From positions 1 to 55,011 of the forward strand of contig JAUCBJ010008434.1 in NCBI GenBank assembly GCA_032718475.1: 55,011 nucleotides of DNA. The letters run 5' to 3'. Of the stretch, positions 7,813-42,671 are shown piece after piece (the first letter of the stretch is position 1; each line of letters opens with the position of its first letter). The notes beneath the pieces were generated by a model. The model made no database searches and had not been told where the DNA came from. It saw only the letters and a list, made by a program, of their open reading frames with translations. The position numbers and the translations under genes were made by a program. This stretch comes from Nemertoderma westbladi (Eukaryota > Animalia > Xenacoelomorpha).

Positions 7813-7847
7813 ATGTATAATGTTCGGATTATTTTTCAAGTATATGG

Positions 7848-9892
7848 GTCCGTATCTCGGTAATGCTCTGTATCCGTATCCCAGTAATGTTCTGTATCCG
7901 TATCCCAGTAATGCTCTGTATCCGTATCCCAGTAATCTCTGTATCCGTATCCCAGTAATGCTCTGTATCCGTATCTCAGTGTGCTCTGTATCCGTATCCC
8001 AGTAATGCTCTGTATCCGTATCCCAGTAATGCTCTGTATCCGTATCTCAGTAATGCTCTGTATCCGTATCTCAGTAATTCTCTGTATCCGTATCTCAGTA
8101 ATGCTCTGTCTCCATATCCCAGTAATGCCCTGTATCCGTATCTCAGTAATGCTCTGTATCCATATCCCAATAATGCCCTGTATCCGTAAATCAGTAATGC
8201 TCTGTATCCGTATCTCAGTAATGCTCTGTATCCGTATCTCAGTAATGCCCTGTATCCGTATCTCAGTGTGCTCTGTATCCGTATCCCAGTAATGCTCTGT
8301 ATCCGTATCCCAGTAATTCTCTGTATCCGTATCTCAGTAATGCTCTGTATCCATATCCCAGTAATGCCCTGTATCCGTATCTCAGTAATGCTCTGTATCC
8401 ATATCCCAATAATGCCCTGTATCCGTAAATCAGTAATGCTCTGTATCCGTATCTCAGTAATGCTCTGTATCCGTATCCCAGTAATGCTCTGTATCCGTAT
8501 CTCAGTAATGCTCTGTATCCGTATCCCAGTAATGCTCTGTATCCGTATCCCAGTAATGCTCTGTATCCGTATCTCAGTCATGCTCTGTATCCGTATCCCA
8601 GTAATGCTCTGTATCCGTATCCCAGTAATGTTCTGTATCCGTATCCCAGTAATGCTCTGTATCCGTATCCCAGTAATCTCTGTATCCGTAACTCAGTAAT
8701 GCTCTGTATCCGTATCTCAGTAATGTTCTGTATCCGTATCCCAGTAATGCTCTGTATCCGTATCCCAGTAATGCTCTGTATGCGTATCCCAGTAATGTTC
8801 TGTATGCGTATCCCAGTAATGCCCTGTATCCGTATCTCAGTAATGCTCTGTATCCGTATCCCAGTAATGTTCTGTATCCGTATCTCAGTGTGCTCTGTAT
8901 CCGTATCCCAGTAATGCTCTGTATCCGTATCCCAGTAATGCTCTGTATCCGTATCTCAGTAATGCTCTGTATCCGTATCTCAGTAATTCTCTGTATCCGT
9001 ATCTCAGTAATGCTCTGTATCCATATCCCAGTAATGCCCTGTATCCGTATCTCAGTAATGCTCTGTATCCATATCCCAATAATGCCCTGTATCCGTAAAT
9101 CAGTAATAATGCTCTGTATCCGTATCTCAGTAATGCTCTGTATCCGTATCTCAGTAATGCCCTGTATCCGTATCTCAGTGTGCTCTGTATCCGTATCTCA
9201 GTAATGCTCTGTATCCGTATCCCAGTAATGCCCTGTATCCGTATCCCAGTAATGCTCTGTATCCGTATCCCAGTAATGTTCTGTATCCGTATCCCAGTAA
9301 TGCTCTGTATCCGTATCCCAGTAATGCTCTGTATCCGTATCTCAGTAATGCTCTGTATCCGTATCCCAGTAATGCTCTGTATCCGTATCCCAGTAATGCT
9401 CTGTATCCGTATCTCAGTCATGCTCTGTATCCGTATCCCAGTAATGCTCTGTATCCGTATCCCAGTAATGTTCTGTATCCGTATCCCAGTAATGCTCTGT
9501 ATCCGTATCCCAGTAATCTCTGTATCCGTATCTCAGTAATGCTCTGTATCCGTATCTCAGTAATGTTCTGTATCCGTATCCCAGTAATGCTCTGTATCCG
9601 TATCCCAGTAATGCTCTGTATGCGTATCCCAGTAATGTTCTGTATGCGTATCCCAGTAATGCCCTGTATCCGTATCTCAGTAATGCTCTGTATCCGTATC
9701 CCAGTAATGTTCTGTATCCTTATCTCAGTAATGCTCTGTATCCGTATCCCAGTAATGCTATGTATCCGTATCCCAGTAATGCTCTGTATCCGTATCCCAG
9801 TAATGCTCTGTATCCGTATCTCAGTAATGCTCTGTATCCGTATCTCAGTAATGCTCTGTATCCGTATCTCAGTAATGCTTTGTATCTGTATA
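7848..9892 (+). repeat. 24-bp minisatellite (about 85 units) in the EI24 intron
   Basis: Unit CAGTAATGCTCTGTATCCGTATC(C/T); it generates the spurious MLCIRIPV / IRIQSITG ORFs. Confidence 0.97.
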
Positions 9893-10069
9893 TCTGTCTC
9901 CATGGTCTAGTAACTTTGGTTTATTGTTTTGACGTGTCACTGTAACATTCTTCTTTCATTTAATTGATGTTTCGCCGAGATTTGATTTGCGTCAAGTTGC
10001 CCCCCCCCCCCCTCCCTCTGCCACTGGCATACAAATTTTTATTTCAATAACTCTTTATTATTGTTTCAG

Positions 10070-14339: not shown

Positions 14340-16618
14340 TGATACCAACAAACAACACATTCGAAAAGAGTAAGGGGAAGGAAGCTATGGACTTTTCAAT
14401 ACCCTAATGGAACCAAAGCACAACCGGATTACATCCTTATAAACAAAAAGTGGAGAAACAGCATGATCAACTGCGAGGCATACAGCTCGTTCAACCTAAT
14501 TGGTTCGGACCACAGAATTGTGACTGCAGAGAACATACTCAATTTGAGAGCCAGCAAACTCAGGAAAAGCAAGCAAATCAACTATGACTGGGAGAAACTC
14601 AGAACTGACAATGCAGTAAAGGATGCTTACACAGTAGAAGTTCAAAACCGCTTTGAAGCACTTCAGTCAACGGATGAAGACCAATCCACGGATTCAATAT
14701 ACCGGAATATAATAACAGCCCACAAGGAATCAGCTAAGAGGCATATCCCCCAGAAACCCAAACGAAAACAGTATGTTTTATAATTTATTATTGGTGCCAT
14801 GACAAAACTCTGAGGTTACTTGTAAGAGAGAAGATCTTAAGATAGCCTACAAAGTTAAAACCGAACAACCGAAAACATTAACAAGGTTGAGAAAGCTAAG
14901 GACGATCTTAAATTGGCCTACAACATCAGCCAGGAAAAGTACATACAGGATAAAATTGAAGCAATTACAACTGCTCACATACGGCAACAATCAAGACTTA
15001 CCTGGCAAACTGTAAATGAGGTTTCTGGTCGGAAACGTTGTGCAAAGGGGCGCCGCAAAGCCGATAGTCCTGAAGAACGTGTTGGGAAGTGGAAAAATCA
15101 CTTCAGCAACTTGCTTGGGCAGCCACCAAACATCGAGGTCAGCCCTACAAGGAAAATATATTACAATACACTACCTATAGAAACAGGGGACTTCACACCT
15201 GCCGAACTCCAAAGAAGCATTAAAAGCATGTCCAATAATAAAGCGAGTGGATTAGATGAAATCCCAGCGGAGGTATGGAAAACAGGAGTGCTAAATAGAC
15301 CATTATTGAATGTTTGCAACCGGATGTTAAAAGGGGAAAAGCCACCACCAATTTGGACTAAAGGTCAACTAAAGCCTCTCCCCAAGAAAGGAGACCTCGG
15401 TAACTATCGTGGGATCTGTCTGCTTGTGGTAGCTGCCAAAATATACAATAAAATGATTCTATATAGGATTAGGCCTCACACATAGAGAAACTACTGCGTA
15501 AGAGCCAAAACGGATTTCGACCAAGTAGATCAACAATAGCTCAGATACTTGCACTACGGAGACTGATTGAAGGAATTAATTCAACGAATCTCCCCGCAGT
15601 CATGACTTTTGTGGACTTCAAGAAGGCATTCGACTCCATCCATAGAGGCAAAATGCTTGAAATCCTAAGAGCTTATGGAATACCAGAATTAATTGTTGCT
15701 GGCATTGGATTGTTATATTGTGACACAGAAGCGCAGGTACTCTCACCAGATGGTGAAACTGAGTTTTTCTCAATCCTGGCTTGGGTACTGCAAGGTGACA
15801 CATTAGCACCATTACTATTTGTAATTGTGCTGGATTACGCAATGAGGACGGCCACAAAGGGTGAAGACCTGGGATTCACACTTCAAGAACGCAGAAGTAG
15901 TAGATATCCGGCAACTACAGTCACGGACACCGACTTTGCGGATGACATCGCCCTGCTCTCTAATACGCTAGCAGATGCACAGCTTCTACTAAATAAAGTG
16001 GAGAGGGCTGCTAACGAGGTTGGATTGCATATAAATGCTACCAAGACCGAATTCATGACCTTTAATGTTCATGGAAACTTGACAACCATTGATAATAATC
16101 AACTAAGGAAGGTCGATGACTTCCAGTACCTTGGATCATGGATAGAGAGTAGCAAAAAGGACATAGAAGTTAGGAAAGCAAAGGCTTGGGTAGCTCTATT
16201 AAAAATGAATACCATCTGGAAATCAAATCTCTCCAGGCACCTGAAGACTAAGTTCTTTCGAGCCACAGTGGAAAGTTTACTTTTATATGGGGGTGAGACC
16301 TGGACACTCACTAAATCACTTGATCAACGAATTGATGGTTGCTACACAAGACTACTAAGGGCAGCCCTAAACATCAGCTGGAGACAAACGCCGTGCTTTA
16401 TGGTACAATACCACCTGTATCAACCAACCTCCGTGAACGCAGATTAAGATTCAGTGGGCACTACTGGCGAAGTAAAGACGAGGTCATAACAGATCTACAG
16501 TATGTACTTTTCTGGCAACCAACTCATGGAAAGCTTAGTCGTGGACGACCGACCATAACATATATAGATCAACTTGAAAGGGATACTGAACTTGGGAGAA
16601 ACGAAATTGCGACAACTA
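14340..16618 (+). mobile_element. 5'-truncated RTE-clade non-LTR retrotransposon (APE C-terminus and RT), degenerate, left part
   Basis: WTFQYPNG..DYILINKKW, GSDHR, KASGLDEIPAE, PKKGDLGNYRGI, FVDFKKAFDSI, VLQGDTLAP, DFADDIALL; several stops and frameshifts; interrupted by the LTR element. Confidence 0.92.
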
Positions 16619-17760
16619 TGTAAAAGCTTTTGCGTCATTAACCGGTTATTTTCCCTTAAAGTACTCTGTAGTTGGTTTACCAGGCATAAAAAGGCCGTGT
16701 CCTTGCTGTACTGGTGTTTTAGAGGACATAAAAGTCATTTCTTCTGTATTTGTACTTTAGAGGACATAATCCGCAATCTCGTGACGCGATAAGCTAGATA
16801 CTCTTGAAAACAGTGTCGCTACCATGACGACGGCTAGCAGCTGATATTGCCACGTCGACATTTCTTTGTTTCTTTGTTCTCTCGTTGTTCGGTTGACCAA
16901 TCAGAGCGTTTTTTGTCTCTGTGTTGGAGGTGGATACAGAACTCAGTAGTTCAGTGTTATGTTTTTGCCCAGAGCCTAAGAACACCGGCTTTTGGCACCT
17001 CCGTGTTTCAGTCTTTAGTCTTACATTAGTAGGCTTAATTATAGAACGTATATCTGTTATCTACTCACTTATTCACTCACTATCCATAAATTACTAATAT
17101 TACTGCTTTTACTGTCGGTTATTCATTATATTGGTTGATGAAATATTATATCGGAATACTGATCAATAGTCAGATACCCCACCTTCTTGATATACTAAAG
17201 GTTAGAGAGACCGGTTACAAATAAACGATTGCGACCTATGTTAAGTGGTTTGAAGTGAATCTAATGCTATTTCATATGCCCGACATAAATTATATGTTGC
17301 TCTCTTTATACGTGACCAAATTTAGTGAAGGTCGGCAGATTAGTGTGCAGTATTGTGCAGCATTGTGTATGAGTGTAACTGATAACAAAGCATCTCCTAA
17401 AGAATGCGCCATATACGTGAATCTATAGCCTTTTCGTTGTGTCTAGTTTAAGTCATAACTCTGTTTACATATTTAGAGCGCCACGTCCTAAAGGAACTGT
17501 TAATATTTCCCGAAAGTGAATAATATTTGTCAGAGATTATATATTACGATCAGTCGAATAATACAGTAGGCTTACACCATCAATCATTAAGCTCCGAACT
17601 CAGTCTCCCGGGTATATCCAACGGGTGAATGATTGCGCATAGACTGGCTTCGGCTAATGTAGTGTATCAAATACTCGTCATAGGCTAAAGACTATCTATC
17701 ATCCAAAAGACATTCTAATTTTGGCAGGTTAAACTGTCAAAGGTCTTAAAAGCGCAAACA
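16619..17760 (+). repeat. 5' LTR of the BEL/Pao element
   Basis: Direct repeat of 32050-33191; only one difference seen by eye (A17757 vs G33188); CCAAT box near 16897, AATAAA near 17219. Confidence 0.97.
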
Positions 17761-18041
17761 ATAACAGATATTGCTTCTGGATTGCGGTGTAAGCAATCTA
17801 GTCGAAAGTACCGGTCGACCGGTAACCAGTAGGCCTGACTGCCTGATCATCCGGACCGGTACTTACTTACAGTACAGGTACAGCAGTATTATTCGATTGT
17901 GGTATTGTATACCGGTAGGCTGTTTAAGAGATTAGGGACTGTACACCCCTTGTTTCTTTTGGAGCTTACTTATTTCTGTCAGTTTTATTTATTTGTAGGC
18001 CAGTATTGAGCAGAAGGCGTGTAAGCCTGCTCAGATTGTAC

Positions 18042-18614
18042 AGATAATTTGTAGGCTTGACTGTTGGCTAACTGTTGATTAGGTCTGAACGGATTGCAGT
18101 GCATGTAGAGTGTATGTCCGATAAAGAACGGTTAGGAAGTAGGGGCAGCCATAGCTGTAAGGTAAACCCCCATCTAAAGAATAAGTCGTACTACTGGGTT
18201 AGAACGCATACTACTTAACCATTTCGGAGTCTGCATGTCCTGTGGTTTATTTAGGCTTGATAGGAGTCCGCCAGCGTTTGGTCTGTACTTTGTTTGTGTA
18301 GTCTGTACGGGTAGCGTATAATTTTATTTAGATAATTTGTAGGCTGGATAGTTGTCTGGCTGCTGTTGGGTTTGAGGAAATTTCGGTGTGTGTAAAGCAT
18401 CTGTCCGATAAAGAACGGTTAGGAAGTAGGGGCAGCCATAGCTGTAAGGTAAATCCCCATCTAAAGAATAAGTCGTACTACTGGGTTAGAACGCATACTA
18501 CTTAACCATTTCGGAGTCTGCATATACCGTAGTTTGTTTAGGCTTGATAGTAGTCTGTCAGTATTTGGTCTGCATTTTGTTTGAATAGTCTGTACGCGTA
18601 GCGTAATATTTATT
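18042..18614 (+). ncRNA. Tandemly duplicated (~287-bp unit) structured RNA element in the retrotransposon leader
   Basis: A 122-nt core differs at one base between copies (18115-18236, 18402-18523); the flanks diverge in sequence but pair with each other as a long G-U-rich stem in both copies. Confidence 0.7.
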
Positions 18615-19945
18615 ATTCAGAGTTTATGCGATTATTCGCAACATTCATATCCCCAAGTTTATTCCTACAGTAATTGTGTTTGTTATACATACCGTTATAG
18701 TTAAACTAACCCCGGTACTACATCAGGGCTGCTCGGCGTAGGTAAAGACTGGAGATTTTGTGCTTTGGTCACTCCGGCAGATACCGTGGTTCTTTTAGCT
18801 GTTCAAGTATTTTTAACTACTAATTATTTGTCGTACAAGTACTTGTACCTAATTTAGGGTTTAGTGTACAGTGCTTTCCGAAAGCAATTAGTGTGTAGGC
18901 AGTGTATTTGTGTTGTAAAGTGGTTAATAGGCACGTTGGTTCTGGTAGACCGCGGTAATTAACTTCTAGGTAGGGACACTCCGTGATACATAACGTAGTA
19001 CCTATAGCGATACGGTTATAGGTCGTCAGGCGGTGGTATTTTCCTATCTGGACAACGCAATATATTTACTACTACTTATTATTTTCAAATACCGTAGTAT
19101 CCTGTCTGTTATAATAACCAGAATTCTAACCCTTTGTTAGGCTGGTTTGTAGACTTCCTGTAAAATTACCCTAAAAATTTCGTACGTAATATTTTGTTGT
19201 GTTTAATTAGAGATTTAATCTCACCCGTATCGTAAGTAATTTGTAGTATTAAGTAACTTAGGTAAATTAGAATTATCTGTTTTAGTGTCCCATAAGTAGC
19301 ACTTCACTGAGAGCGCACAGCTTTTGTGTAGTGACTTCCCCCAGAAATAATAACATTTATTTCAAATATTGACAAAACCCATTTTAAACGGGTATATAAA
19401 TATTATAAATCAACTCAAACGATTTATAAATAGTAGGCCTGCCATACAACAACTAGGTCTCAATATCAGTTGGACTACTGCTTAAATAACGGTAATAAAG
19501 TAAGTTAAAGTAACCAAGTAACCCTTAAAATTCAGAAATTCAATTATTCTAAAATAATTGACATACCGGTATTTACAATAGGCTTATTATATTTATTTCT
19601 ATAAATTTTAGGTTGAAATCATACCGGTATTCTGTAATTAATTCTAGTCTGTAATTATACTTATATATATACACTATAAGTGTAAACTGCATACCGGTAT
19701 TCATGATAGGCCTATTATATATTTATATATATTTGTGCTAAAATTACCTACCGGTATTCTGTGATAAACTAGTCTGTAATAATACTTATATATACTATAA
19801 GCATACCGGTATACTAATATATTATATATCACGCTACACTGAGTAGCAGTATCGGTAATTAATTACTAGGCTAGCAGTTAACACGGAATTACTAGACTTG
19901 CTTAGACTGTAATATAGCAGTAGACATTCAACTGTGTAAACAAAC

Positions 19946-22900
19946 ATGTCTGATACTAAGCAGAACCTGTCAGACAGTTTATTAGATGTAACTATCTGCG
20001 ACTCAGATAGAGGTGTAGAACCGTCTAGTCCTAAGTTCAGTTCACCTCCCACTGTGAGGAAGGTCATCCCTCCAGTAGTAATAACAGAACCTAGGCTGGT
20101 CCAACATCGTAGGTCTATCATAGGCACTCAAGCTCAGGTCAAGCGGGACCAAGAAGCAGCGGAACAGCAACAACCCGCGAGCCAATAACTTATTTCTCAG
20201 CGGCCCAACAGCTCCAGTAGTGAGGATACTGTAGAGCTGACACCCGAGCGCGGAGCAAAGATGACGGATGCGGTTTATTCGGATCCCCTTCTCATCCTTC
20301 CTGCAGCCGTACTCACTAGGTTATTGATCGCGGTGGAAGAACACCAGATCGATTGGGTGAGAAGTAAACGATCGACTAAAGATAGTTATGCGGGATACAC
20401 AAAGGAAGAACTGAAATCTATGGTCGAGTCGCAATGGAACTTCCCCGGACCCGGACTCCCGTTTGATTTATCAGAAGCTGCCTGGGAAGACATACACCGG
20501 ATGGGAGTAGCCAAGGAAACCATCGATCCAGCTGTGTGGAAGAGGTCCGCAGCCGGATACGCACAGGGATTCTTCAGCTCTATGGAGCGAGTAAAAGAAC
20601 AACTGTTTCAACAACCTCAAGGACCTCAAGAGCAGGGACAACTGCTTTATCAAGTTAGAGAAAGAATTCTGCGAATTAGGCTAATCTTATCAGCCTTTGA
20701 GGAGGCTTCTAAAAGAAGACAAGACACGTCGTTGCAAGTTGCCGTAAAGACTTGGTTTCAACGGGTGAGTCGCCAGGTTCAAGGAACGGCTCAGTGGAAA
20801 GCTCAGCTGGAGGAGCGCTCAACCCATGGAGAATCAACAGACGCTACTTTTTCCCAAGTGGAAAGTGAAGCGACGGCAGAGAAACCGCATAAGAGGGATG
20901 CCATTGACATCTATCTTCTCAGACTATCAGCGTTTTTTAGGAGATGAAGAGTTGAGGAGAAGGTTAGATGGACTTAGCCCTAATAGCGAAGGAACTCAGC
21001 GTGTGTTGGATGCCATCGATGTGGAAATGAGGGCTGCGAACCAGGCTAAATTTGATGAACGCCTCCGCATCACTAGAGTCCAAGAAGAACAAGTAAAGAA
21101 AAAACGTATAGAAGACAGAAAGGCAGCGGCAGTAGCAGCAGCAGTGGCATCGGCAGAAGCTGAAAGAAAAGCGGCCGAAGCGGAAAGAAAGGCGGCAGCG
21201 GCAGAGGCAGAAGTGGAGAGAAAAGCGGCCGAAGCGGAAAGAAAGGTGGCAGCGGCAGAGGCAGAAGCGGGGAGAAAAGCGGCCGAAGCGGAAAGAAAGG
21301 CGGCAGCGGCAGAGGCAGAAGCGGGGAGAAAAGCGGCCGAAGCGGAAAGAAAGGCGGCAGAGGCAGTAGCAGAAGCAGAACGGAGAGCGGCTGAAGAAAC
21401 CACCCAACTAGAATTGGAAAACATTCAGGAGAATCAAGACTGCATAAATAAACAGTTAACAGCTAGTAATATGCAGATGATGAATCGATCTACTCCCAAA
21501 AGACATACATCATCTGAGGAAGGCGACACCACCGATACTGAAGGCAAAGGAAATAGATCTCACCTAAGCAGACGTAAAAGAACATCCCACCGTCAGAAAT
21601 TGCCTGATTTGCCTCCGGCTGTTAGAAGGCAACTAAATAACACCAACTTAGGTAGTACAGAACCCACAGACCAAATAATTACAATAGAAAGACTCCCTAC
21701 TATAGTAGATGAGCCTGAAATAATTAGGCCTGTTCCCGAAGCCACCCTTTCGGTGGTAGAGAAACCTGTACTCCCTGAACCTACCTCGCAATTCCCTTTG
21801 CACAGCACTAAGCTACCTGTGCCCAGCAGAACAGCCCATGAGACAGTTCATGCCCTGGACTCCGAGCGAAATATTCATGATTTGTCGCCCGTTGTCCCTC
21901 GTCCGCCCGCTACAACGTTGGCGAATCCCGCTTCGGCGGTTGAATGGGTGGATGAGAGACGACGGGGGATGGATCTCCTGCTCGGACAGATGCAGGAGAC
22001 CGTTCAGCAATTCAAGGGCACAGTAAGGGAAAGTAGATTAGAGTTGCAAGAAGTGCAGCAAAGTATCGCGCTAGAACGCGATAAATTAGTAAATACACAA
22101 AAGGGTATACCAACACCCCCCGTAACAATGTGTCAACCTGTTAGGTCTGAAGTATCTCATGCGCAAGGTGTGGAGCCTACACGCATCTATACTGCTAGCG
22201 AAGTAGAAACTCCTATAGTGAACCCTATTAAGGGTAATTATAGACCTGTTGATAATGATATTCCCTATAGACCTGATCATAATCCAAGAAATTTATATAC
22301 CGATAACTCGATATTAAATAACACGATGGCCCAAGAAAGTTTTACGCGTCAAATGGCTAGAACCGAAGCCCGGCAAGCGGTAAAGGTGGGAGAGATAGTC
22401 AAGTTCAATGGAGATGAGATGAAATGGTTACCTTTTAATGAATATTATAAAGATAACATACAGAACTCTGTACTATCTAATGGAGAGAAACTTAGATTCC
22501 TCATCGAGTGCTTGGAAGGATCTCCCAAGTTAATGGCGTTAAAGTTTATTGGACATCCAGACGGATTAAGACAAGTTTGGGATACACTAAACATCAGGTA
22601 TGGTAATAGGAATAACATAGCTGGGTATTTGTATGCAAAGTTAGTAGCGCCCCGAAAGTTTATTAGCAGCGGGATTATAGAGTTTTCCGATGAGATTCAG
22701 GAGATCTGCAGACAATTAGATTGGCTAGGTAAGTCTCATGAGTATCAGAGTGCTATGGTTATTAGAGCAGTGGCTTCTACTTTACCGAAGGGTGGAGTAG
22801 GTACACGCTGGGATAAGAAAGTGTTATATATGATGGAACAACAACGACAAGACCCTACCATGGCTGATCTCATGTCATTCCTAGATGGAGAAGTGAAATT

Positions 22901-25900
22901 ACAGCTCCTGAAACTGTCCAGAGAGAAGACACCGGAAAACAAGGTAAGTGAAAAACCCGTCGCTAGGAGAAAGGTAACACCAGTGTGTTATACAGATGAT
23001 GGCGAAAGCCAGACTTCTCAAGGAGAAGATAGCGGGAAAGACACTGACAGATCTTATTACGTAAATAAAATGCCTAAAGATCAGGTAAGTAAATTTAAGT
23101 CTCGAACAAATGACAGGAGAGAACAGGTAAGAAAAACTCCTCCTACGTCTCCCAAGAGAATTCAGGTGAGAAAGCCCGAAGAAAGGACAAGTGTACACAA
23201 TGTTACTCAGAGTAAGGTAAGTAACATCAAACCGAAATGTGCGCTATGTGATGGGACCCATCGCTTAAATATGTGTGATGAATTTCTAAAGAAATCATTA
23301 ACTGAGAGACGTGAAGTCATGTGGGATAAGCGGTTGTGTTATAATTGCCTCAGACATGGACACCAACGGCGAACCTGTTACTCTGACACAAGATGTGCCA
23401 AGTGTGGTGCGAAACATCATATCTTGTTACACACTGAATTCGAGCGAAATAGTCCGAGTCAGGTAAGTGATTCCGAACTACATGTCCAATTCAGTGATGT
23501 GAACGACACTGATCAATCTGAGATGGAAGGATTCTATACGGACGAGTTCTCCGACGAAAACGAATCCTGTTACACGATAAATACCACAGTGTATCGAGCA
23601 CTCACGTATGAAAAGGATACGGACAGCGACCTTACCCTAACTACTTCTGATCAACAACCATTTTGGAAAGCGCCAACTTCCAATGTAGGGATTAGAGAAT
23701 TTCCTGTGGTACAGGTAAGGGTCCACGGACCAAAAAGGAGTTATGTAGTGAACGCCCTCCTTGACTCCGGTAGTACAGGAACATTCATCGACAAAGAGCT
23801 AGCCGAGGACATATTTGCTGGACAACCCAAGTTCCGAACTAAGCTAAACATGTCAGGAATTATGCAAGTTTGGAAATCCACAGTAACAGCGGATTATTAT
23901 GTAGGTGCGTTGTCCACCCCCCAGGACGAACTAGGAGAACGTAGCATAAGGTCAGTGAAAATGGTGGCTATAAAGAATTTCGCTACTACTCAAGCAGACC
24001 TTTATAATTGGGACGAGGATGAGAGCATTCAATATCTTAAGATACCTCGATTCCAGACAGATTATCCTGGAGTGCAAATACTCATCGGCCAAAATGCACA
24101 TGAGGCGCTCGAGACATTGGAGAAACGGCCTGCTCAACCGCAGCCACTACAGACCTATGCGGTAAGAACTAGAGTAGGTTGGTACTTTACTGGCCCTTCC
24201 CGTAGAACTCTCATGGAAAGATTACCGAAAGATCAGGTACATCAAGTGCGAGAATGGGAAGTTGAGAACAGTGAGTTCGACGATCCAACTGAGGGAACTC
24301 CATACTCCTCAGACAATGACGATATACATCAACTCTTCGATGAGGAGAATGCCATCGATCTCCTCAAGGAAAGCGAGACTTGGCAAAATCAAGTGAACTT
24401 ATGTCAACTCCTTCTCCCATCCGAGCGAGACGACTATAACGACGAGCTTAATGACGTCATTGAACGTTATAATGCCAAGACTCGGGATGAACACGCCGTG
24501 AGATTCTTTACTCAAGAGGTCGTAGAGCCCAACTCCTACGATAAGGCCCTATCGGTGGAGGAAGAAAGAGCCAAGCAGATCCAAGCGACAACTACTCGTT
24601 TTCTTAAAGATCAAGGTAGATATGAGATCGGTCTTCCTTTCCGAAAGCGAGTACCAAAGTTCATTAACAACAGACCTTTGGCAGAGAAAAGAATTGCTCA
24701 ACTACATCGACGCCTTACGGCAAATTCTTCAGCTAAAGAAATGTATCAAACGCAGTTGAAGAAGTTTATTAGCAAGGGATATGCGGAGCTAGTACCGGAA
24801 GAAACACCCATAACTGAGAGAACGTATTATTTAACTCACCATTACATTCCCAAACCCGGTAAACCCCATGAAGTACGAGTGGTGTTTGACGGTTCCGCCC
24901 TTTATATGGGCCAATCTCTTAATTCTGAATTGTTACCCGGACCCAACTTACTCCAATCCTTGTTGGGAATACTATTAAGATTAAGACAATATTCCATTGC
25001 TTTCGCCTCAGATATAGAAGGCATGTTCTTACAAGTCAAAGCGCTGGATAGGAATCGAGATAGCCTACGATTTTTGTGGTGGCCTGAAGGAGACCTCAAT
25101 AAGAAACCGGTGGAGTACTGGATGACCATCCAAGCTTTTGGGATAATCTCGAGCCCTTCAAACGCCTGTTCCGTGGTGCGCACCACTGCGGATGACAACC
25201 GAGACGCCTTCTCTAAAGAAGTGATCGACAATATCAAACGAGACATCTACATGGACGATAATCTGAAGTCCCTTCCATCAGTCGAAGAAGCCATTGAGGT
25301 CGCTAAAGGAACGGTAGAATGCTTAAGGAAAGGTGGATTTCGATTAACTAAATTCACCAGCAACTCCCGTGAGTTTCTGGAGTCGATCCCGGTAGAAGAT
25401 CGAGGAGCAAAAGACCTAGATCTAATAAAGGATGATCTCCCAGAAACTAAGACCCTTGGTTTGAAATGGGACACAGAAAGAGATATCCTGTTTTTCCAAC
25501 TAAAACAGCGAGATAATCCAGTTCGGACTAAACGGATATGTTTAAGTATCCTGAGCACTTATTTCGATCCATTGGGATTTATTAGCCCAGTTATATTGAT
25601 TGCTCGGAGTTTAGTACAACAAATGTGGCTTGAAAACCACTCATGGGACGATCCACTTAAGGGAGAATTATTAAAGAAGTGGATGAAATGGGAAGATTCT
25701 CTACCAGCCATCGAAAACTTCATAATTTCCCATTCATATTTTGGTCATGTTCTCCCTACGTATTCATATCAACTCCATGTGTTTGGAGACGCCAGCGATA
25801 TGGGAATAGGTATAGTAGCCTACCTAAGGGTGGAAACTCCGGACGGAATCAAAGTTGCCTTGGTTACCTCTAAGGCATTGATAAACAACAAGTTGAAAGT

Positions 25901-28132
25901 TCCTCGAGCAGAGTTAAAAGCGGCTCTATACACTACAGCCATCGGCCGGAATGTAACAGAACAGATCGACTATCCCCTGGAGAAAACTGTCTATTGGACC
26001 GACGCTTTACTCGTGTTGGAGTATATAACCAATGAAGTCTGTCAGTTCAGCGTCTTCGTTACCAACAGAGTAGCTATTATACTCAGTCGCACGACGATGG
26101 ATCAATGGAGACATTGCCCCGGAACGATTAATCCAGCAGACATCGCTTCCAGGGGAGCAACTCCACAAGAACTGGTAGATACTCCAGACTGGTTAGGTGG
26201 ACCCGACTTCCTCTACCAAGAAGAAGAAGAATGGCTTCCTCATCTTACTACAGCAGAAATTAGACAGGCCAAGGGAGCGGAGAAAGTCAAGCCTAAAACT
26301 CAGGCGAGTAAATCGAAGTTATTCAAACCCCCAGTAGATCTGTCTGTACTACATACTTCCGGAGACGACGCTTTGGATCAGAAACCCACAGCCACAAATA
26401 AACCCATTGTGGAAATCCGTGATAAGGATTGAAAATCTGGTATACCAGACGTCTCGTAAGGACTCTCACCTCTTCTGCAGAGAGCGATGCATCACTACAG
26501 TTCCTGGAATCGGCTTTGTAAGGCCGTTACATATTTAAAGAGATGTTTTCACCATCACTACTCTGGGATGAAAACAAAGGGTGATACCGCTCCAATCACA
26601 TCAGTGCAGGTCCATGTTATTAAAGACCTTCCTAAATATAAGGTACCCGACAAGTTTCTGAAGGAGAAGATCAGTTATCAGGAGCATGAAGAAACCAACA
26701 AACAGATGCTGAGACTCTTACAATGCTATGAAGATTCCGATAAGTATTTCCTGTTGTTGAGAAATCCACAGATGCGCTTAAGGGATCGTTTCTCTAGCAC
26801 AATGATAGATGGGTTGATACGTGTTGGAGGAAGGTTAACGAATGCCCCATTATCCTTTGATACTAAGTTCCCCATACTCATTAGAAATCTTGAAATACAA
26901 GTCAAGATGATTGTAGATGTTCATAGCAAACTTTATCATGCTGGTAGAGAACGAGTTCTTAGCGAAATTCGAACTCGCTATTATTTTTATAAACCCCGTA
27001 GAGCTCTGAACCAAGTTCTTAGGAACTGTATACCCTGTAGGAGAGCATTCAGTAGGCCTTTAACACAGAGAGAGGCAGAATTACCTAGGGAACGAGTAAG
27101 CTTTTATGAACCACCCTTTACTAATACCGGTGTGGATTTATTTGGCCCTATTGAAGTATATCGTGCTAGGACTATAGTCAAGAGATGGTGTGTAATCTTT
27201 GTTTGTATGACTTGTAGAGCCATCCATCTCGATATGGTGAACGATTTATCTACCAACAGCTTTCTATTAAGCTTACGACGACAAATGCTCGCTTTGGCAC
27301 TAGTAACACGATGAGATCTGATAAGGGAACCAACTTCATTGGTGCCAACAATGAAATCAAAGCTTACGTCAAAGATTGGAACCAAAGACAGGTGGACGAC
27401 CAACTACGAGTAACAGCGTCTAGTTGGACCTTCAACGCCGCCGACGCCCCTTGGTGGGGAGGAAGTTGGGAGAGATTAATAAGAAGTGTGAAGACGGCAT
27501 TTCATTTCATAGTGCCTTGCCGCGCTTATCTCACCGACGAACTTTTGCGGACGTTAATGGAAGAAATCGCCGCCTATCTCAACGAGAGACCGCTTATGCC
27601 AGTCTCATCGAGTCCCGATTCCCTGGAAGCGCTAACACCTGCGCACTTCCTACTGAAGAAACCTGTAGCCATGCTCCCACAATCGGAAATCACAGACGGA
27701 GACGAATACTGCCGACAAACTTGGCAACTCATGCAGTTGTTATCCCGTCGTTTCGCTGACCATTTCGAAAAACATTATCTGCCCACGCTACAACTTCGAA
27801 CTAAGTGGTTTGCGCAGCAAGAAAACGTCAGCGCTGGAGACATGGTGCTTATTGTGGATGTGGATCTTCCACGTAAGCGGTGGCAGACAGGTCGTATAAT
27901 CGAGACGCACATCTCGGATGACGGTTTGGTGCGATCGGTAGAACTCGTCGTCATGCGACGTAACTTCTAGAAACCGGGAATTGTCTTCGAGACGCAGCAG
28001 CTCAATCGCCCAGTGGGACGTTTATGTTTACTGGAAAGAGACAGAGAACTCTCCGGAAACTATGGGAGACAAGATACTCTTCCCACGACCACCTCCCTAA
28101 TCCAACAAACATCTAGGGACTCCCTAACTTAA
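19946..28132 (+). pseudogene. BEL/Pao gag-pol polyprotein, disrupted
   Basis: Ala/Glu/Lys coiled-coil repeats (21150-21390), DUF1759-like KFNGDEMKWLPF, three Zn knuckles, protease ALLDSGS, RT YMDD, RNase H HVFGDAS/PRAEL, integrase GVDLFGP, SDKGTNF, WERLIRSVK, terminal RPVGRLCLLE. In-frame stops at 20186, 26430 and 27968; frame changes near 20830-20947 and near 27300. Confidence 0.93.
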
Positions 28133-29763
28133 CAACGGCTGGAGTGGGTGTGTGACCATATTACTTTATATTTGTATTTGTTTTATTTTTATATTTATGT
28201 ATGTATTATTATGTAATTTTATTTTAATCGTTTTATTTAATTTTATTTAGTAGTATGGTATTTTAGAGATTATTTAGTAGATTAGTGCAATATATATTCG
28301 CGTTTATTATTTAATTACGTATATTATATATTTAGTGCGACGGCGAGAAATAATTCTTTTTCTCTTTCCTTACTGCCCGTATTACATTATCAATACGTGA
28401 CTACAGTAAGATGAAATCTTCGTACTTATTAAAGTACAATAAAGCCACTACTATATTCAAGTATTATTGGTAGGCAGAGTATTAGGAATGCAAAGTTCAG
28501 ATCCTCGTGTCTCGGCTAAACCAAGCTCTGGGTAGACCTTGGAAACGACTTGCCTCTTCACACTGACATTGCTTCGTGCGATATTGCTCTCATAAAACCG
28601 TATATTAAATAATACATATAGTAGCGTGATGTCCCTTTAACAGTAGCGTATAACGCAAAATAAATCTGTTAAACCCTTTGACCATCTGTAATTCTAGTCG
28701 ATTAAGATATCGCGGCACCCACCGATATACTTGAAAGACAAATTTCTAGAATCAATGGTTAACGTCCCCAGACAAGTTCTGGAATAAACTGGTGCCCATC
28801 CTAAATATTAATTATTAATATTTACAAAAATCTGTCAAATATCAGATCCTTAAAATTCTAGTCGATTAAGATATCGTAGCACTTACCGATATTCTTAAAA
28901 GGACAAAATTTCTAGAATCAAGGATCCCAGTCCCCAGACACGTTCTGGAATAAAATTGTGTCTATTTAACATTAAATAATAAAATTTACGGGAATAAATT
29001 TAAATTCAGATATTTCAATGAATTTAATAAATTGTCATTTTATACAATTTATAACATTCCCAAAATTCCATTAATTAATAGATCATGGGAGCGGAGATTC
29101 ACTATATTAAGTGTATTTGTGTGCGAGAATCTCCAATGTATAGTCAATAGCCGATAAAATTCATAGAATCATGTATAAAGGGGATATTGACCATTAAAGA
29201 ATTACTATTAAATAGCATCCCAGATCTGTATGCATGAGAATTACCCTAATTCTACCGCTAGCTTTCCATAATGTCACCATGGCAACAACCATGCTAGAAT
29301 TAGAAGTGAGTTAAAAGAACAATAACAGGCTTGCCCATTGAATAGCATACGGAATAAATAGCACACCGCTAGTATCTAAAGATACATAATAACAACGTGA
29401 CATTCTGGAAGGCACTTGACTAACGGACAAATGACCCGAATGTGTGATAGAATGTGTACAATTTGTGACAGTTACGTGGAATTTGTGCGTTTGTAGGTGA
29501 ATGTTACTACTAAGGTGTGTTTACAGTAGCGAGTCGCAATTGTGAAAGTAACCCTAACTCTCCAGTAAGAACCCGAAGTATATCTAAGCCTTTGGGACGG
29601 ACGGTGGAGTGGCTCGTGCTGGTTGTTGTAGTCGTTGTGCAGCTACGACGTTGGCGATAGGCACATCGGCGAAAGTACACCAGCGCTGAGGATCTTGCAC
29701 TGTCCGGGGGCAGAGAGGGGTAGGCAGCGACGCCCGCTCGCCTAAATATAAACTCATTATAAT

Positions 29764-31971
29764 ATGGATAAACTCATAGCAGATATGACTGAGTTGATAG
29801 AAGATGATCTTGGCATCAGGGAGCGATATACTCTACCTTTACAAGCGTTTGTCGATAGCTTGATATGCGGCGACGCTGGTCCAACTACTACGGAGGATGA
29901 TGGTCATTATATCGAACCGCCAATGTCCCCGGAGCAACTTACGCGTGAATTGGACTATAGAAAGTTCACCGCTCGCTATACGCATCGTAATGGTACGTAT
30001 ATGGACTTCTTAACTACCGGCCACCCTATCGATTTACCCGATACGGACGATGTGGATACCGAAAGGGAAATGGTTTTATTTAAATATCATACCCAACGGA
30101 ATCGGAATGATAAGCCAAGAATAGAACACGAGAACTCTATTCGAAACAGACTCGAAAGAGAAGACGTTGAAGAGCCGGATAAACGCAACGACTTCAACGA
30201 TTATCTGGAATTCTTGAGAGAAACATACCTCAATATTGCCAGTCAACAAAATCTCGAAACTCGATATCCTCAAGGTATACATCATGATCCTATGATAGAA
30301 CTCAAACGACTCTATTTCACTATGATGTATCTTACCGCCGATCGACCGCTACCTGTTGTCCCAGATAGCTTCGAACAGATGGAGGAATATTGTAAAACTG
30401 GAGAACGATCACCCGCGTTTCCTCTGCAGGACATGCGTCTTTGGTATTACTGTGACGAATGCCCTAGACCCAATCAGCAAACGGAAAGACATAAACATCC
30501 GCGGAGACGTTGCGCTAAACACAGTTTTACACGATATACTTACGGGAGTTTCGAGCGAAACCTGTTCGACGTGTCCCCTGCGGTCGCTCGACTCAAGCGA
30601 TCCTTGAACAAACCGATGATCAGAGTTCCGGAATACTCGGTCAGACCTCCGCATTCCTCAGTTAGACCTCAAACTCTTGACCCTAATAGTATCACGGATC
30701 CTCCCGAACTGTACTCACTGTTCAAAGATCTAGTGTTACCCGAACAATTGATCTGTGGCACTCCGGTAGTAGGCTCACGAGACATTCGCCAACCCTACCT
30801 AGCTGGATTGGGACGTGGTCATCTAATATCACCGTTTAACCCATACAACCGTCCCGGCTTCACCTCTATCCAACCCGTTACGGAAGTCGAAGAGAGCGTC
30901 GTACGAAATGCATTAGACGCTATTCGGCAGAAAATCGGAAAAGGAACGTACGATTGTTTGGAGAAGCGTAAATTGCAGCAACAAGTCCAAGCGGTGAAGG
31001 AATTAGCTTTACCCCAGTTCGATAGAGAAATACAAAATCTCGAGGAGGACATCGAACGTGGACGAACCTACTCTTTGCAAGAGTTTCTAGATGAGCGTCT
31101 ACAACAACAAGCGGAGGAGAATCAGCTCGAGGAGAGACATATAGAACTGGATGAGAGAGAAGAAGCGGCTTTAGCTCAACCCGAAGCACAAATCCTTATG
31201 ACGGATCTCTACTCTAAAACCATTCTTCATCCCTCGATGGTTCCCCATTTCGGAGACAAACTTTTTGCGACGGCACAACCCCAACCGGTTGATATCAACT
31301 TAAGATCTCGAGATCTTATCGCCGACGCTCCTCTGTTGCAGCGTCCGCCCATCGAACCCGCTCGTGTCGATGGTATACTCGTTGAACCTCCGGACAATAG
31401 AGCAGATCTTGTCCGTCGCATGGTACACGATGTAAACATACGCGCTAGACCTTTACCGGACTCGTTTTATGGGATCAAAGATCACCCTTATTACGTCAAT
31501 CCTAACGATATTACTTCATACCATTTGATCAATTATATCCGTCAAGACCCTGAGTATGGCGATTTATTTATCAACTCGCACCCTGAGTTACAGGAAGTAT
31601 CTCGACGGCCCTACGAATATCGAGCCCGAGAACGCGAGCTGGAAAGAACTATTAAACCAAGGAAGTTTCTCACCACTCACGGTCCGCCTACCGCCATTGC
31701 CCAGACAACCCGTCAAGGACCCGTAGGAGCTGCTGTCCTGAGGCGCGCCCTAAAGGCTGTTAGACCTCGCTCCACGGAAGTTGATATCGATCAACCAGGT
31801 ACCTCGACCGGCGGATACACCGATCGCAATCCGAAACCTTCTGATGCAATTGTATTGCACCCTTCACCCAGAAGTTACAGCCCTCCTAGTAAAGTGGCTC
31901 GCCCCAAAGAGAAAAGGACTCTTGCTAGCCTCAAAAAACTGCGTAAACGCCGTCCGCGTAAGAAAGACTAA
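29764..31971 (+). CDS. Extra ORF (735 aa) of the BEL element, unknown function
   Basis: Uninterrupted 2.2-kb ORF between pol and the 3' LTR; CDEC...HKH...CAKH putative Zn site, acidic coiled coil, basic C-terminus KKLRKRRPRKKD; no signal peptide or TM segment visible. Confidence 0.85.
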   Translation: MDKLIADMTELIEDDLGIRERYTLPLQAFVDSLICGDAGPTTTEDDGHYIEPPMSPEQLTRELDYRKFTARYTHRNGTYMDFLTTGHPIDLPDTDDVDTEREMVLFKYHTQRNRNDKPRIEHENSIRNRLEREDVEEPDKRNDFNDYLEFLRETYLNIASQQNLETRYPQGIHHDPMIELKRLYFTMMYLTADRPLPVVPDSFEQMEEYCKTGERSPAFPLQDMRLWYYCDECPRPNQQTERHKHPRRRCAKHSFTRYTYGSFERNLFDVSPAVARLKRSLNKPMIRVPEYSVRPPHSSVRPQTLDPNSITDPPELYSLFKDLVLPEQLICGTPVVGSRDIRQPYLAGLGRGHLISPFNPYNRPGFTSIQPVTEVEESVVRNALDAIRQKIGKGTYDCLEKRKLQQQVQAVKELALPQFDREIQNLEEDIERGRTYSLQEFLDERLQQQAEENQLEERHIELDEREEAALAQPEAQILMTDLYSKTILHPSMVPHFGDKLFATAQPQPVDINLRSRDLIADAPLLQRPPIEPARVDGILVEPPDNRADLVRRMVHDVNIRARPLPDSFYGIKDHPYYVNPNDITSYHLINYIRQDPEYGDLFINSHPELQEVSRRPYEYRARERELERTIKPRKFLTTHGPPTAIAQTTRQGPVGAAVLRRALKAVRPRSTEVDIDQPGTSTGGYTDRNPKPSDAIVLHPSPRSYSPPSKVARPKEKRTLASLKKLRKRRPRKKD

Positions 31972-32049: not shown

Positions 32050-33191
32050 TGTAAAAGCTTTTGCGTCATTAACCGGTTATTTTCCCTTAAAGTACTCTGT
32101 AGTTGGTTTACCAGGCATAAAAAGGCCGTGTCCTTGCTGTACTGGTGTTTTAGAGGACATAAAAGTCATTTCTTCTGTATTTGTACTTTAGAGGACATAA
32201 TCCGCAATCTCGTGACGCGATAAGCTAGATACTCTTGAAAACAGTGTCGCTACCATGACGACGGCTAGCAGCTGATATTGCCACGTCGACATTTCTTTGT
32301 TTCTTTGTTCTCTCGTTGTTCGGTTGACCAATCAGAGCGTTTTTTGTCTCTGTGTTGGAGGTGGATACAGAACTCAGTAGTTCAGTGTTATGTTTTTGCC
32401 CAGAGCCTAAGAACACCGGCTTTTGGCACCTCCGTGTTTCAGTCTTTAGTCTTACATTAGTAGGCTTAATTATAGAACGTATATCTGTTATCTACTCACT
32501 TATTCACTCACTATCCATAAATTACTAATATTACTGCTTTTACTGTCGGTTATTCATTATATTGGTTGATGAAATATTATATCGGAATACTGATCAATAG
32601 TCAGATACCCCACCTTCTTGATATACTAAAGGTTAGAGAGACCGGTTACAAATAAACGATTGCGACCTATGTTAAGTGGTTTGAAGTGAATCTAATGCTA
32701 TTTCATATGCCCGACATAAATTATATGTTGCTCTCTTTATACGTGACCAAATTTAGTGAAGGTCGGCAGATTAGTGTGCAGTATTGTGCAGCATTGTGTA
32801 TGAGTGTAACTGATAACAAAGCATCTCCTAAAGAATGCGCCATATACGTGAATCTATAGCCTTTTCGTTGTGTCTAGTTTAAGTCATAACTCTGTTTACA
32901 TATTTAGAGCGCCACGTCCTAAAGGAACTGTTAATATTTCCCGAAAGTGAATAATATTTGTCAGAGATTATATATTACGATCAGTCGAATAATACAGTAG
33001 GCTTACACCATCAATCATTAAGCTCCGAACTCAGTCTCCCGGGTATATCCAACGGGTGAATGATTGCGCATAGACTGGCTTCGGCTAATGTAGTGTATCA
33101 AATACTCGTCATAGGCTAAAGACTATCTATCATCCAAAAGACATTCTAATTTTGGCAGGTTAAACTGTCAAAGGTCTTAAAAGCGCAGACA
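32050..33191 (+). repeat. 3' LTR of the BEL/Pao element
   Basis: Copy of 16619-17760, preceded by the short purine tract GGGAGCGG. Confidence 0.97.
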
Positions 33192-33270
33192 AACTATGGA
33201 GAATCGGGAAGCCTGGAAGGATCTCATTTCCACTGTCCGAGTTCGCTCCACCTAGTAGTAGTAGTAGTAA
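33192..33270 (+). mobile_element. 3' end of the interrupted RTE element
   Basis: Continues the RTE frame MENREAWKDLISTVRVRST* and ends in a (TAG)n tail. Confidence 0.88.
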
Positions 33271-34146
33271 CTTCCCCCAATATTTTGCGGCCTATAGGTA
33301 TGTAACCTCGCCAATCGAGATTTATCTTCCTCAAAATTAAAAAATCTGGAATTCTTCACATGGGCGCCTGTGGAAATATTTTATACTAAAACACATAAAT
33401 ATATTACACATAAGGGCCTACAGCAATCCCAAGTCTGTTATGTGAAAAAATCTTCGCTACCATTACTGGAAATTATTACGTTTCCGGTTGTACCTCTTTA
33501 CCTTTACTTTACCTCTTGTATCATTAAATTTTTGATTCAGTTGCGGACCAACGCTGTGCAGCGCCCAGTGGCAAATCGAACTAAAGTTAAAGTTGAAGTA
33601 AATTTTTTTTGTGTCCCTCTAGCGGCGAGTGACGGAATTATATATTTCACTAAAAACACTACAGTCTATGTCCCTTAATATATATCGAATTTTTTTGAAA
33701 CCAATTTTTTTGACTCAGCACCTTCGTTTCTACAAAAATTATCCAGCCGATTTTATAAATTATTAATTTTTAAGTAAATTAATTAAATTTATTAATTAAA
33801 ATTAATTAAAATTTTCAATATTATTAAAAAAATTTTTTTTTCAAAAAAGTGTTGGATAATTTTTCAAGATGTTCAAAAAACCTTTCAAACGAGCCATAAA
33901 TTATCGAATTTGGGTGAAAAACAGCGGAGGAGTAGTATTTTGAAAAATGGAAATATCGTGAAATGTAATTCTGAGATAATTTGCTTTAAAATTTGAACCT
34001 TCCCGCTCAAACCTGACTGTCTGTAGTCTGTTAATCGGTCAGTAGTGTTTGACACTATGGCTTCATACCAACTCACTAAAATTATCAATATGGGGGTTTT
34101 CGGGGTCGGTGATTTCATTTCTGATGTTTTCTGATGTTTGTTTGTA

Positions 34147-34300
34147 TCTGACAGCATGTCTGTCTGACAGCATGTCTGTCTGACAGCATGTCTGTCTGAC
34201 AGCATGTCTGTCTGACAGCATGTCTGTCTGACAGCATGTCTGTCTGACAGCATGTCTGTCTGACAGCATGTCTGTCTGACAGCATGTCTATCTGTCTGTC
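34147..34300 (+). repeat. 16-bp tandem repeat, about 9 copies
   Basis: (CTGACAGCATGTCTGT)n. Confidence 0.95.
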
Positions 34301-42365: not shown

Positions 42366-42671
42366 ACTTAGGTAGAAGAGTTGAAGCAAGTCAGTAGTTG
42401 AAGAAGTACAGCCAGTAGACGTATTCCAGAGATTTTCTGTAGCCGTTAATACCCCTCATAGTATTATAATGACAGACAGAGACATCACGGCCAACTACGG
42501 TGTATACTGATTATTGCAGCATTAGCATTGCATATCACTGTACTAAGATTACCCTAGTTTAGGTTTTGTTATTTACATGTTATTTTTGTTATTTTGTTTT
42601 ATAATTCAAATCAATTTCATTTATCGATACCCTAATATTTAATTCAAATTATAGGCTAGTAATTGCCTATT

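What the first reader, a model, noticed from the sequence alone, without database searches (positions are those of the whole stretch)
18042..18614. Duplicated long RNA rod capped by a near-invariant 122-nt domain
Two tandem units share a 122-nt core with one C/T difference (18167 vs 18454), while their ~70-nt flanks differ extensively yet still pair. Copy 2: 18358-18376 pairs with 18537-18555 (19 bp including G-U) and 18384-18394 with 18519-18529. Copy 1: 18101-18109 pairs with 18230-18238, plus further helices. The core can form TCCGA/TCGGA, GGTTAG/TTAACC, GCAGC-CATA-GCTGT and either GGGG/CCCC or AAYCC/GGGTT; the single difference keeps the latter pairing. A variable stem with an invariant head indicates sequence-level selection, as in a ribozyme, export element or packaging signal. 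I could not match it to a known ribozyme class.
Basis: partly seen in the sequence, partly recalled or inferred. Interest (0 to 1): 0.8.

Follow-up and report, generated by a model that had tools for sequence, protein, structure and literature searches.

The report
Twin RNA rods in retrotransposon leader
Two tandem 287-base units in the unusually long non-coding leader of a young animal jumping gene (a BEL/Pao retrotransposon) are each predicted to fold into a long RNA stem with a branched head that likely marks the element's RNA for packaging or export; the two heads are nearly identical most likely because one was recently copied onto the other, and nothing points to a ribozyme.

Summary
The two units (18042-18329, 18330-18621) lie in the 2,500-nt 5' leader of a 16.6-kb BEL/Pao LTR retrotransposon (LTRs differ at 1 of 1,142 bases). 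Each is predicted to fold, on the + strand only, into a roughly 240-nt G-U-rich stem. Their arm differences keep the stem far better than random placement (0 of 300, both directions). Public contigs of this very large family show the head is not invariant: 16 sites vary, and both units here share a letter carried by only 0-5% of family depth, while private arm letters are not shared. That points to recent conversion between the units. Head variation still avoids predicted pairs (10 of 45 unpaired against 3 of 58 paired sites, p=0.015), so the head is a constrained structure. No Rfam family and no hammerhead core. The leader is purged of AUG (7 against 37 expected). Best guess (0.45): a Gag-binding packaging platform on a long stem, like the CaMV leader. 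Main rival (0.25): an RRE/CTE-like export element, possibly for the orphan basic-tailed ORF3. Function untested; no RNA data.

The parts
16614..16618 (.). 5-bp target-site duplication, left copy (right copy 33192-33196)
16619..17760 (+). 5' LTR, 1,142 bp, TGT...ACA ends; CCAAT-like box near 16897 and TATA-like box near 17040 are kept in the sister LTR
   Evidence: one difference from the 3' LTR
17761..20260 (+). 2,500-nt non-coding leader, AUG-depleted; no TGG directly after the LTR, so no evident tRNA primer site
18042..18329 (+). unit 1; predicted stem about 18050-18114 paired with 18230-18287
18115..18236 (+). head 1 (122 nt), predicted branched domain
18330..18621 (+). unit 2; predicted stem about 18338-18401 paired with 18518-18574
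18402..18523 (+). head 2 (122 nt): closing helix 18404-08/18511-15, helix 18417-28/18496-507, helix 18429-32/18455-58 with hairpin 18433-44; family variation mostly in loops; 18462-18481 without a listed variant
20261..20947 (+). ORF0, 228 aa, helical, no homologue found; overlaps the gag frame in another frame
20826..26432 (+). gag-protease-RT-RNase H ORF (DUF1759, three Cys/His knuckles at 23238-23432, Pao peptidase A17); ends in a stop before integrase
26460..27970 (+). integrase region in two further frames (Integrase_H2C2, DUF5641); broken in this copy or in the assembly
29764..31971 (+). ORF3, 735 aa orphan in the env position; no hydrophobic segment (max 19-aa hydropathy 0.97), Cys/His cluster at aa 230-253, C-terminal tail with 12 K/R in 20 aa
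32050..33191 (+). 3' LTR, preceded by a short purine-rich tract

Best explanation
The two units sit in the 5' leader of a young BEL/Pao LTR retrotransposon and are each predicted to fold into a long G-U-rich stem carrying a branched head that likely serves as the docking site by which the element's own Gag picks its full-length RNA for packaging, and the two heads are nearly identical most likely through recent conversion between the units. Shown by sequence or calls: the element and the position of the units; arm differences that keep the predicted stem; one- and two-unit forms in the family; family variation of the head concentrated in predicted loops; a family-rare letter shared by both heads; AUG depletion of the leader. 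Inferred: that the stem forms in vivo (0.9); that conversion, probably template switching during reverse transcription in the one stretch that selection had kept similar, made the heads identical (0.8); that the ligand is the three-knuckle nucleocapsid of Gag and the job is packaging (0.45); that the stem only needs to pair, to hold the head out and apart from the rest of the leader; that duplication adds a second docking site and is optional.
For: Position: 280-810 nt behind the 5' LTR, upstream of all ORFs; retroviral packaging signals lie in 5' UTRs (PMC5035971 passages). Gag has three Cys/His knuckles. Stem: 14 of 14 varying pairs of the two-unit consensus fold stay paired, 3 by two-sided change; random placement of the same 33 substitutions reached the observed energy in 0 of 300 trials each way; + strand only. 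Family contigs: of 7 listed arm variants tested, 5 of 5 at paired sites keep the pair and the letter at 18264 faces a G that it would pair with. Head: 10 of 45 predicted unpaired against 3 of 58 paired sites vary at 10% or more in X1 (p=0.015); of those 3, one turns G-U into G-C and two break pairs at helix ends. Conversion: the letter at 18502/18215 is in both units but 95%, 99% and 100% of pooled depth in X1, X3 and X5 read another letter, while private arm letters at 18264, 18269, 18363 and 18585 (95-99.6% of X1 depth read otherwise) occur in one unit only. An X5 contig bridges the unit junction (18207-18375) and another skips one unit (18077 to 18431). Analogy: in CaMV and RTBV the arms of the leader stem are not conserved in sequence and a purine-rich packaging signal is exposed on top (PMC5902531 passages); the 5' part of this head (18408-18432) is 80% purine.
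Against: No binding, packaging or expression data; no RNA run on record and only contigs were laid. Formal covariation on the two units is not significant (62 of 500 shuffles), and the consensus fold was derived from the same two sequences. Contig depths are not copy numbers, linkage between sites is mostly unknown, and 191 of 231 variant rows were not shown. X1 may be the source sample. The CaMV shunt layout is absent: the nearest upstream AUG frame ends at 17662, about 390 nt before the stem. AUG depletion suggests ribosomes read this leader, and two stems of about -80 kcal/mol in their path are not explained by packaging. Relatives manage with leaders of 15-334 nt and nothing similar, so such a rod is not a general BEL/Pao packaging signal. 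Arms of the two units are largely cross-compatible (48 and 51 of 54 pairs, against 49 and 54 native), so pairing does not explain why conversion stopped at the head.
Confidence: 0.45

Rival explanations
1. Export element. The rods work like an RRE or CTE: the head is bound by the orphan ORF3 protein (Rev- or CERV-like, made from a spliced or internally started RNA) or by host NXF1, and licenses export of the unspliced 15-kb RNA.
For: Size and layout resemble the RRE (about 250-350 nt, scaffold for an arginine-rich motif; PMC3342944 passages). ORF3 has no membrane segment, a Cys/His cluster and a K/R-rich tail. A C. elegans LTR retrotransposon uses a large orphan protein with a Cys loop for genomic RNA export (PMC10309623 abstract and section 15). 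The head holds internally repeated 6-7-mers (p=0.023), as a multi-site scaffold might. RSV uses direct repeats for export (PMC5035971 passage).
Against: ORF3 has no homologue or usable model; splicing not shown; basic tails are common and may only be nuclear signals. The RRE lies in env and the RSV repeats flank src, not in the leader.
Confidence: 0.25
2. Translation module. The rods are shunted over or form part of an IRES that lets ribosomes reach the AUG at 20261 across a 3-kb leader.
For: ATG is the most depleted of 64 trinucleotides in the leader: 7 against 37.1 expected (z -6.2, 0 of 500 shuffles), its reverse complement normal (33 against 35.4). CaMV and foamy-virus leaders are shunted.
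Against: No short uORF ends in front of the stem. The rods end about 1,700 nt before the AUG. AUGs are not significantly enriched inside the rods (3 of 7, p=0.13).
Confidence: 0.15
3. No specific ligand. The stem is kept for a generic reason (RNA compaction or stability, editing substrate, small-RNA source) and the head is an ordinary loop homogenised by conversion.
For: The head is not less variable than the leader overall: 17 changes at 3% in the 151-nt stretch against 125 at 5% in 1,461 nt, and the average family head differs from this one at about 5.9 sites. Seven of 11 one-sided stem changes are A/G opposite U.
Against: Head variation is uneven: several sites carry two or more alternative letters while 18462-18481, mostly predicted unpaired, has no variant at 3% at the highest depth; variation avoids helices. 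The leader shows no A>G excess (18 A>G, 27 G>A in X1).
Confidence: 0.1
4. Self-cleaving ribozyme of a new class, releasing 287-nt rod-like monomers as in retrozymes.
For: Tandem units near 300 nt with rod-like folds; earlier notes report many hammerhead arrays in this genome (unchecked).
Against: No Rfam hit at gathering score in the window and only three chance snoRNA/scaRNA hits (E 0.47-7.4) in 16600-20300. No hammerhead CUGANGA core on either strand and no hairpin, twister, twister-sister or HDV core string (recalled motifs). Cleavage between the primer site region and gag would cut the genomic RNA of a family that has multiplied. Units occur as one or two copies inside the element, not as free arrays.
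Confidence: 0.05

Closest known systems
CaMV / RTBV pregenomic RNA leader (PMC5902531, passages read)
   Same: Long leader stem whose arm sequence is not conserved, with a purine-rich signal on top for the capsid protein; reverse-transcribing element.
   Different: Plant pararetrovirus; one stem, not two; needs a short uORF ending just before the stem, absent here; no sequence likeness tested.
HIV-1 Rev response element and Rev (PMC3342944, passages read)
   Same: Roughly 250-350-nt structured scaffold; element encodes an accessory protein with a basic stretch.
   Different: RRE lies in env and is single; no Rfam RRE match here; ORF3 is 735 aa and unlike anything searched.
Cer1 CERV of C. elegans (PMC10309623, abstract and section 15 read)
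   Same: LTR retrotransposon with a large orphan protein bearing a Cys motif, needed for genomic RNA export.
   Different: Cer1 is Gypsy/Ty3-related (search listing); its RNA target is not defined in what I read; ORF3's role here is untested and no homology was found.
MPMV CTE and RSV direct repeats (PMC10746203, PMC5035971, passages read)
   Same: Cis-acting export elements that work in one or more copies.
   Different: Located outside the 5' leader (RSV repeats flank src; CTE position recalled as 3'); bind host NXF1/Tap.
BEL/Pao LTR retrotransposons (PMC3118150, PMC6238403, passages read)
   Same: gag-PR-RT-RH-IN order, DUF1759, Peptidase_A17, DUF5641, TG...CA LTRs, 5-bp target duplication.
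   Different: 16.6 kb, above the 2-15 kb bounds used in PMC3118150; 2,500-nt leader against 15-334 nt in control loci; orphan ORF3; long branch, best RT-RH identity about 45%.

Membership tests
BEL/Pao LTR retrotransposon (host element) | Direct LTRs with TG...CA ends and target-site duplication | tested here: met
BEL/Pao LTR retrotransposon (host element) | Pao-type domains in gag-PR-RT-RH-IN order | tested here: met
   DUF1759, Peptidase_A17, Integrase_H2C2, DUF5641; best 120 hits all carry PF05380
BEL/Pao LTR retrotransposon (host element) | tRNA primer binding site (TGG...) behind the 5' LTR | tested here: not met
   no TGG in the first 17 nt; also absent in L003, L004, L013, present in L011, L012; host tRNAs not available for a direct test
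Retroelement packaging signal (Psi-like) | Structured element in the 5' leader of the genomic RNA | tested here: met
   (structure predicted, not probed)
Retroelement packaging signal (Psi-like) | Specific binding by Gag/nucleocapsid and need for packaging | not testable with these tools
   bench test
Pararetroviral ribosome shunt | Short uORF ending just upstream of the stem base | tested here: not met
   nearest upstream AUG frame ends at 17662
RRE / CTE-type export element | Match to a described family | tested here: not met
   Rfam
RRE / CTE-type export element | Element-encoded adaptor with a basic RNA-binding stretch | tested here: inconclusive
   ORF3 tail 12 K/R in 20 aa, no homologue
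RRE / CTE-type export element | Confers export on intron-containing RNA | not testable with these tools
   no RNA data
Known small self-cleaving ribozymes | Catalytic core motif or covariance-model match | tested here: not met
Known small self-cleaving ribozymes | Self-cleavage in vitro | not testable with these tools
   bench test

The most novel reading that the evidence does not exclude
This BEL/Pao lineage has evolved a complex-retrovirus-like control system of its own: tandem RRE-like rods in a 2.5-kb AUG-free leader are the target of the orphan 735-aa ORF3 protein, which routes the unspliced RNA to export and packaging. It would be a Rev/RRE analogue in a retrotransposon superfamily for which my searches found no described RNA cis-element.
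Probability: 0.2. Interest if true: 0.75.

Novelty: new variant of a known kind. Interest (0 to 1): 0.42.

Why it matters
BEL/Pao elements are widespread in animals, yet no listed paper of my searches dealt with their packaging or export RNA signals (titles and abstract starts only). This family offers a compact candidate with thousands of natural variants, so structure and ligand can be tested directly. It is also a clear case where near-identity between two repeats inside one element reflects conversion and would have been misread as strong sequence selection. As it stands the thing is a structured leader element of a retrotransposon, a known kind, in an unusual element.

Tried and rejected
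Rfam: nothing at gathering score, three chance hits by E-value. Exact head patterns: 0 in viral contigs, 0 then 1 in metagenome contigs, 0 in prokaryote genomes; the one hit, L001, is a 22-nt chance match inside a bacterial gene. A covariance model of the two heads found only its own 2 sequences in the window and 13 BEL loci; built from two near-identical rows, it is weak. A model of the whole rod was too long to calibrate. No whole genome is held. No RNA holder listed; X4 is only guessed to be RNA, so expression and splicing are untested. Viral contigs gave no relatives of the RT. ORF0 and ORF3: no Pfam, no homologues, no usable Atlas hit (CHAD-like rows under 0.9), poor single-sequence models (pLDDT 42 and 52), no fold match for ORF0; ORF3's model was not searched. 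Splice donor in the head: a donor-like string lies at 18160/18447 but its +3 position varies in 29-44% of X1/X3 depth, so it was dropped. Switch between two pairings of the repeated hexamer: the side-by-side form is 7 kcal/mol worse and has probability 0.00; loose ends hint that both copies of the hexamer changed in parallel in a divergent subfamily, but linkage is not shown. A two-sided change in the closing helix of that subfamily is likewise pieced from different contigs and is not counted. Editing-driven A>G bias: not seen in the leader spectrum. Selection against chimeric arms: little support. Transition/transversion difference between head and leader: p=0.06. Contigs laid on the head are less alike than on the whole stretch (40% against 59% at 95% or more), but edge effects confound this. 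Assembly polishing as the cause of head identity: unlikely, since the shared letters are minority letters, but not excluded without reads. Earlier findings: none near, by sequence or by words. Supplement of PMC3118150 with element lengths per clade was not read and bears on how unusual 16.6 kb is.

Full report
Context. The window is repeat-rich, most likely animal DNA. The finding lies inside an LTR retrotransposon: LTRs at 16619-17760 and 32050-33191, differing at 1 of 1,142 bases, with TGT...ACA ends and a 5-bp target duplication. Between them lie a 2,500-nt non-coding leader, ORF0 (228 aa), a long gag-protease-RT-RNase H frame, an integrase region in pieces, and an orphan 735-aa ORF3. Pfam gives DUF1759, Pao peptidase A17, Integrase_H2C2 and DUF5641, and the 120 listed homologues of the RT-RNase H region are BEL/Pao-type proteins of 31-44% identity. 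In a 26-row tree the element is a long branch among elements of aquatic animals; its place is unsure. At 16.6 kb it exceeds the 2-15 kb bounds that PMC3118150 used for full-length elements (passages). Of 13 control BEL loci, 8 showed an LTR-like pair; in the five where the leader could be read cleanly (L003, L004, L011, L012, L013) it was 15-334 nt, and none of the 13 resembled this leader.

The observation. The two units, the 122-nt block with one difference and the three helices are as described. Arms differ at 22 of 73 and 12 of 52 columns; the contrast with the head is far beyond chance. Folding z-scores are -2.5 and -5.25 and only the + strand folds well, as expected of RNA with many G-U pairs and not of a DNA inverted repeat. 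In the tandem each unit pairs with itself (probability 0.99-1.0) and not across units.

Is the stem selected? In the two-unit consensus fold 14 of 14 varying pairs stay paired, 11 by one-sided and 3 by two-sided change; 18 further differing columns are unpaired. That count leans to the structure it came from, and the shuffle control on two rows is not significant (62 of 500). A stronger test placed the same 33 substitutions at random in the arms: mean energies -59.3 and -63.9 against the observed -84.5 and -80.6, reached in 0 of 300 trials each way. Independent support comes from public contigs (15,697 laid from X1, 3,728 from X3): I tested the 7 listed variants that fall in the arms (40 of 231 rows were shown); 5 of 5 at paired sites keep the pair, one faces a G it would pair with, one is in a loop.

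Is the head invariant? Not in the family. Laying three runs on one head pooled both units: in X1, 16 positions carry another letter at about 2% of depth or more, 13 at 10% or more, and the average family head differs from this one at about 5.9 sites. A single-unit relative in X5 (record 26, joint 18077 to 18431) differs at 17 of 105 bases in 18431-18535 and at 25 of 173 upstream. The key site is 18502 (18215 in unit 1): both units here carry the same letter, while 95%, 99% and 100% of depth in X1, X3 and X5 read another. In the arms the reverse holds: at 18264, 18269, 18363 and 18585 this copy has letters private to one unit, with 95-99.6% of X1 depth reading as the other unit does. The tandem form is not peculiar to this copy: an X5 contig (18207-18375) and an X4 contig (18247-18394) bridge the junction, and all X5 depth over the key site reads the common letter (that the bridging contig is among those counted is inferred). 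A rare letter in both heads with unshared private letters in the arms is what conversion confined to the head would leave. Template switching in the most similar stretch is the likely route (inference). Caveats: depths are sums over short contigs, not copy numbers; linkage is mostly unknown; X1 may be the source sample.

The head is still constrained. Sites varying at 10% or more fall at 10 of 45 predicted unpaired and 3 of 58 paired positions (p=0.015); one of the three converts G-U to G-C and two break pairs at helix ends. The tetraloop at 18437-18440 varies at three of four positions while its stem hardly does, and 18462-18481 shows no variant at 3% although mostly predicted unpaired. The head contains repeated 6-7-mers (p=0.023). 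So there is a structured domain with some sequence constraint, but the 121/122 figure overstates it.

What does it do? No Rfam family matches and no hammerhead or other recalled ribozyme core string is present, apart from short chance words; cleavage here would also cut the genomic RNA ahead of gag. The leader has 7 ATG against 37 expected, the most depleted trinucleotide, with the reverse complement normal, so it is likely part of a translated RNA on the + strand. The position behind the LTR, the three-knuckle Gag and the CaMV precedent, where stem arms are free in sequence and a purine-rich packaging signal sits on top (PMC5902531 passages), favour a packaging platform (0.45). The CaMV shunt uORF is missing, so how ribosomes pass the rods is unexplained. 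The export reading (0.25) rests on the RRE-like size and layout (PMC3342944 passages), on the CERV precedent (PMC10309623 abstract and section 15) and on ORF3, which has no membrane segment, a Cys/His cluster and a basic tail but no homologue. A translation module (0.15), a generic stem (0.1) and a new ribozyme (0.05) remain. None of the functions is tested.

Literature. Nine searches ran; no listed title or abstract start described a structured leader element in a BEL/Pao retrotransposon. The library is limited to open-access papers. Passages only were read of PMC5902531, PMC3342944, PMC10746203, PMC3118150, PMC13524379, PMC554778, PMC6238403 and PMC5035971; abstract and one section of PMC10309623; no supplements. 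The Tf1 self-priming mechanism and the ribozyme core motifs are recalled, not from a call.

Verdict. Real, selected RNA structure in the leader of an unusual BEL/Pao element; head identity mostly from recent conversion; function most likely protein docking for packaging or export. New variant of a known kind; interest 0.42.

Noticed in passing
window 17761-17771 and 17050-17060 (also 32481-32491): The 11 bases directly behind the 5' LTR, where a tRNA primer site should be, are the exact reverse complement of an 11-mer inside the LTR (chance 0.003-0.005). This recalls Tf1-type self-priming (recalled), but the 11-mer lies just behind the TATA-like box, probably before the start site, and the sister solo LTR differs there by one base. 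L003 and L004 show only an 8-nt complement; L005 and L013 none.
   Followed up: partly
window 17761-20260: Strong strand-specific AUG depletion (7 against 37) with CTG excess (z +7) over a 2.5-kb leader; TAGGC occurs 16 times against 1 for its complement.
   Followed up: partly
window 29764-31971: ORF3: intact 735-aa orphan in the env position, no homologue among 1.84 billion representatives, predicted helical region at aa 372-469, basic tail.
   Followed up: partly
window 28690-28989 and 29403: A second duplication (about 136 nt, 81% alike) upstream of ORF3, with five TTCnnGAA words resembling heat-shock elements (recalled motif) in 28744-29410; a structured stretch at 29525-29774 (z -4.8) precedes ORF3. 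Possible internal stress-inducible promoter.
   Followed up: no
window 17619-17993: Further strongly folding region across the LTR end (z -4 to -5.6), with a 14-nt palindrome at 17810-17823; 14-nt palindromes occur 5 times in the element, so it is not exceptional.
   Followed up: partly
window 19562-19829: Short tandem duplication with four copies of a 10-nt palindrome containing ACCGGT.
   Followed up: no
window 49132-50339 and about 54413-55011: Sister solo LTR (75% alike, own 5-bp target duplication) and the start of a third, more distant LTR; the 3' half of the LTR is visibly better kept than the 5' half.
   Followed up: partly
window 42663-43676, 45451-46074: Host genes without apparent introns: an OGFOD2-like gene and a small GTPase that looks like ARL2 (name recalled).
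   Followed up: no
window 14343-16447, 40361-41773, 50844-54028: LINE-like RT fragments; the BEL element interrupts or abuts the first. 24-bp, 68-bp and 16-bp tandem arrays lie at 7825-9900, 1222-1629/3820-4568 and 34115-34326.
   Followed up: no
L002-L014: Thirteen loci in contigs filed as bacterial or archaeal MAGs hold BEL/Pao retrotransposons, most likely host-animal contamination.
   Followed up: no
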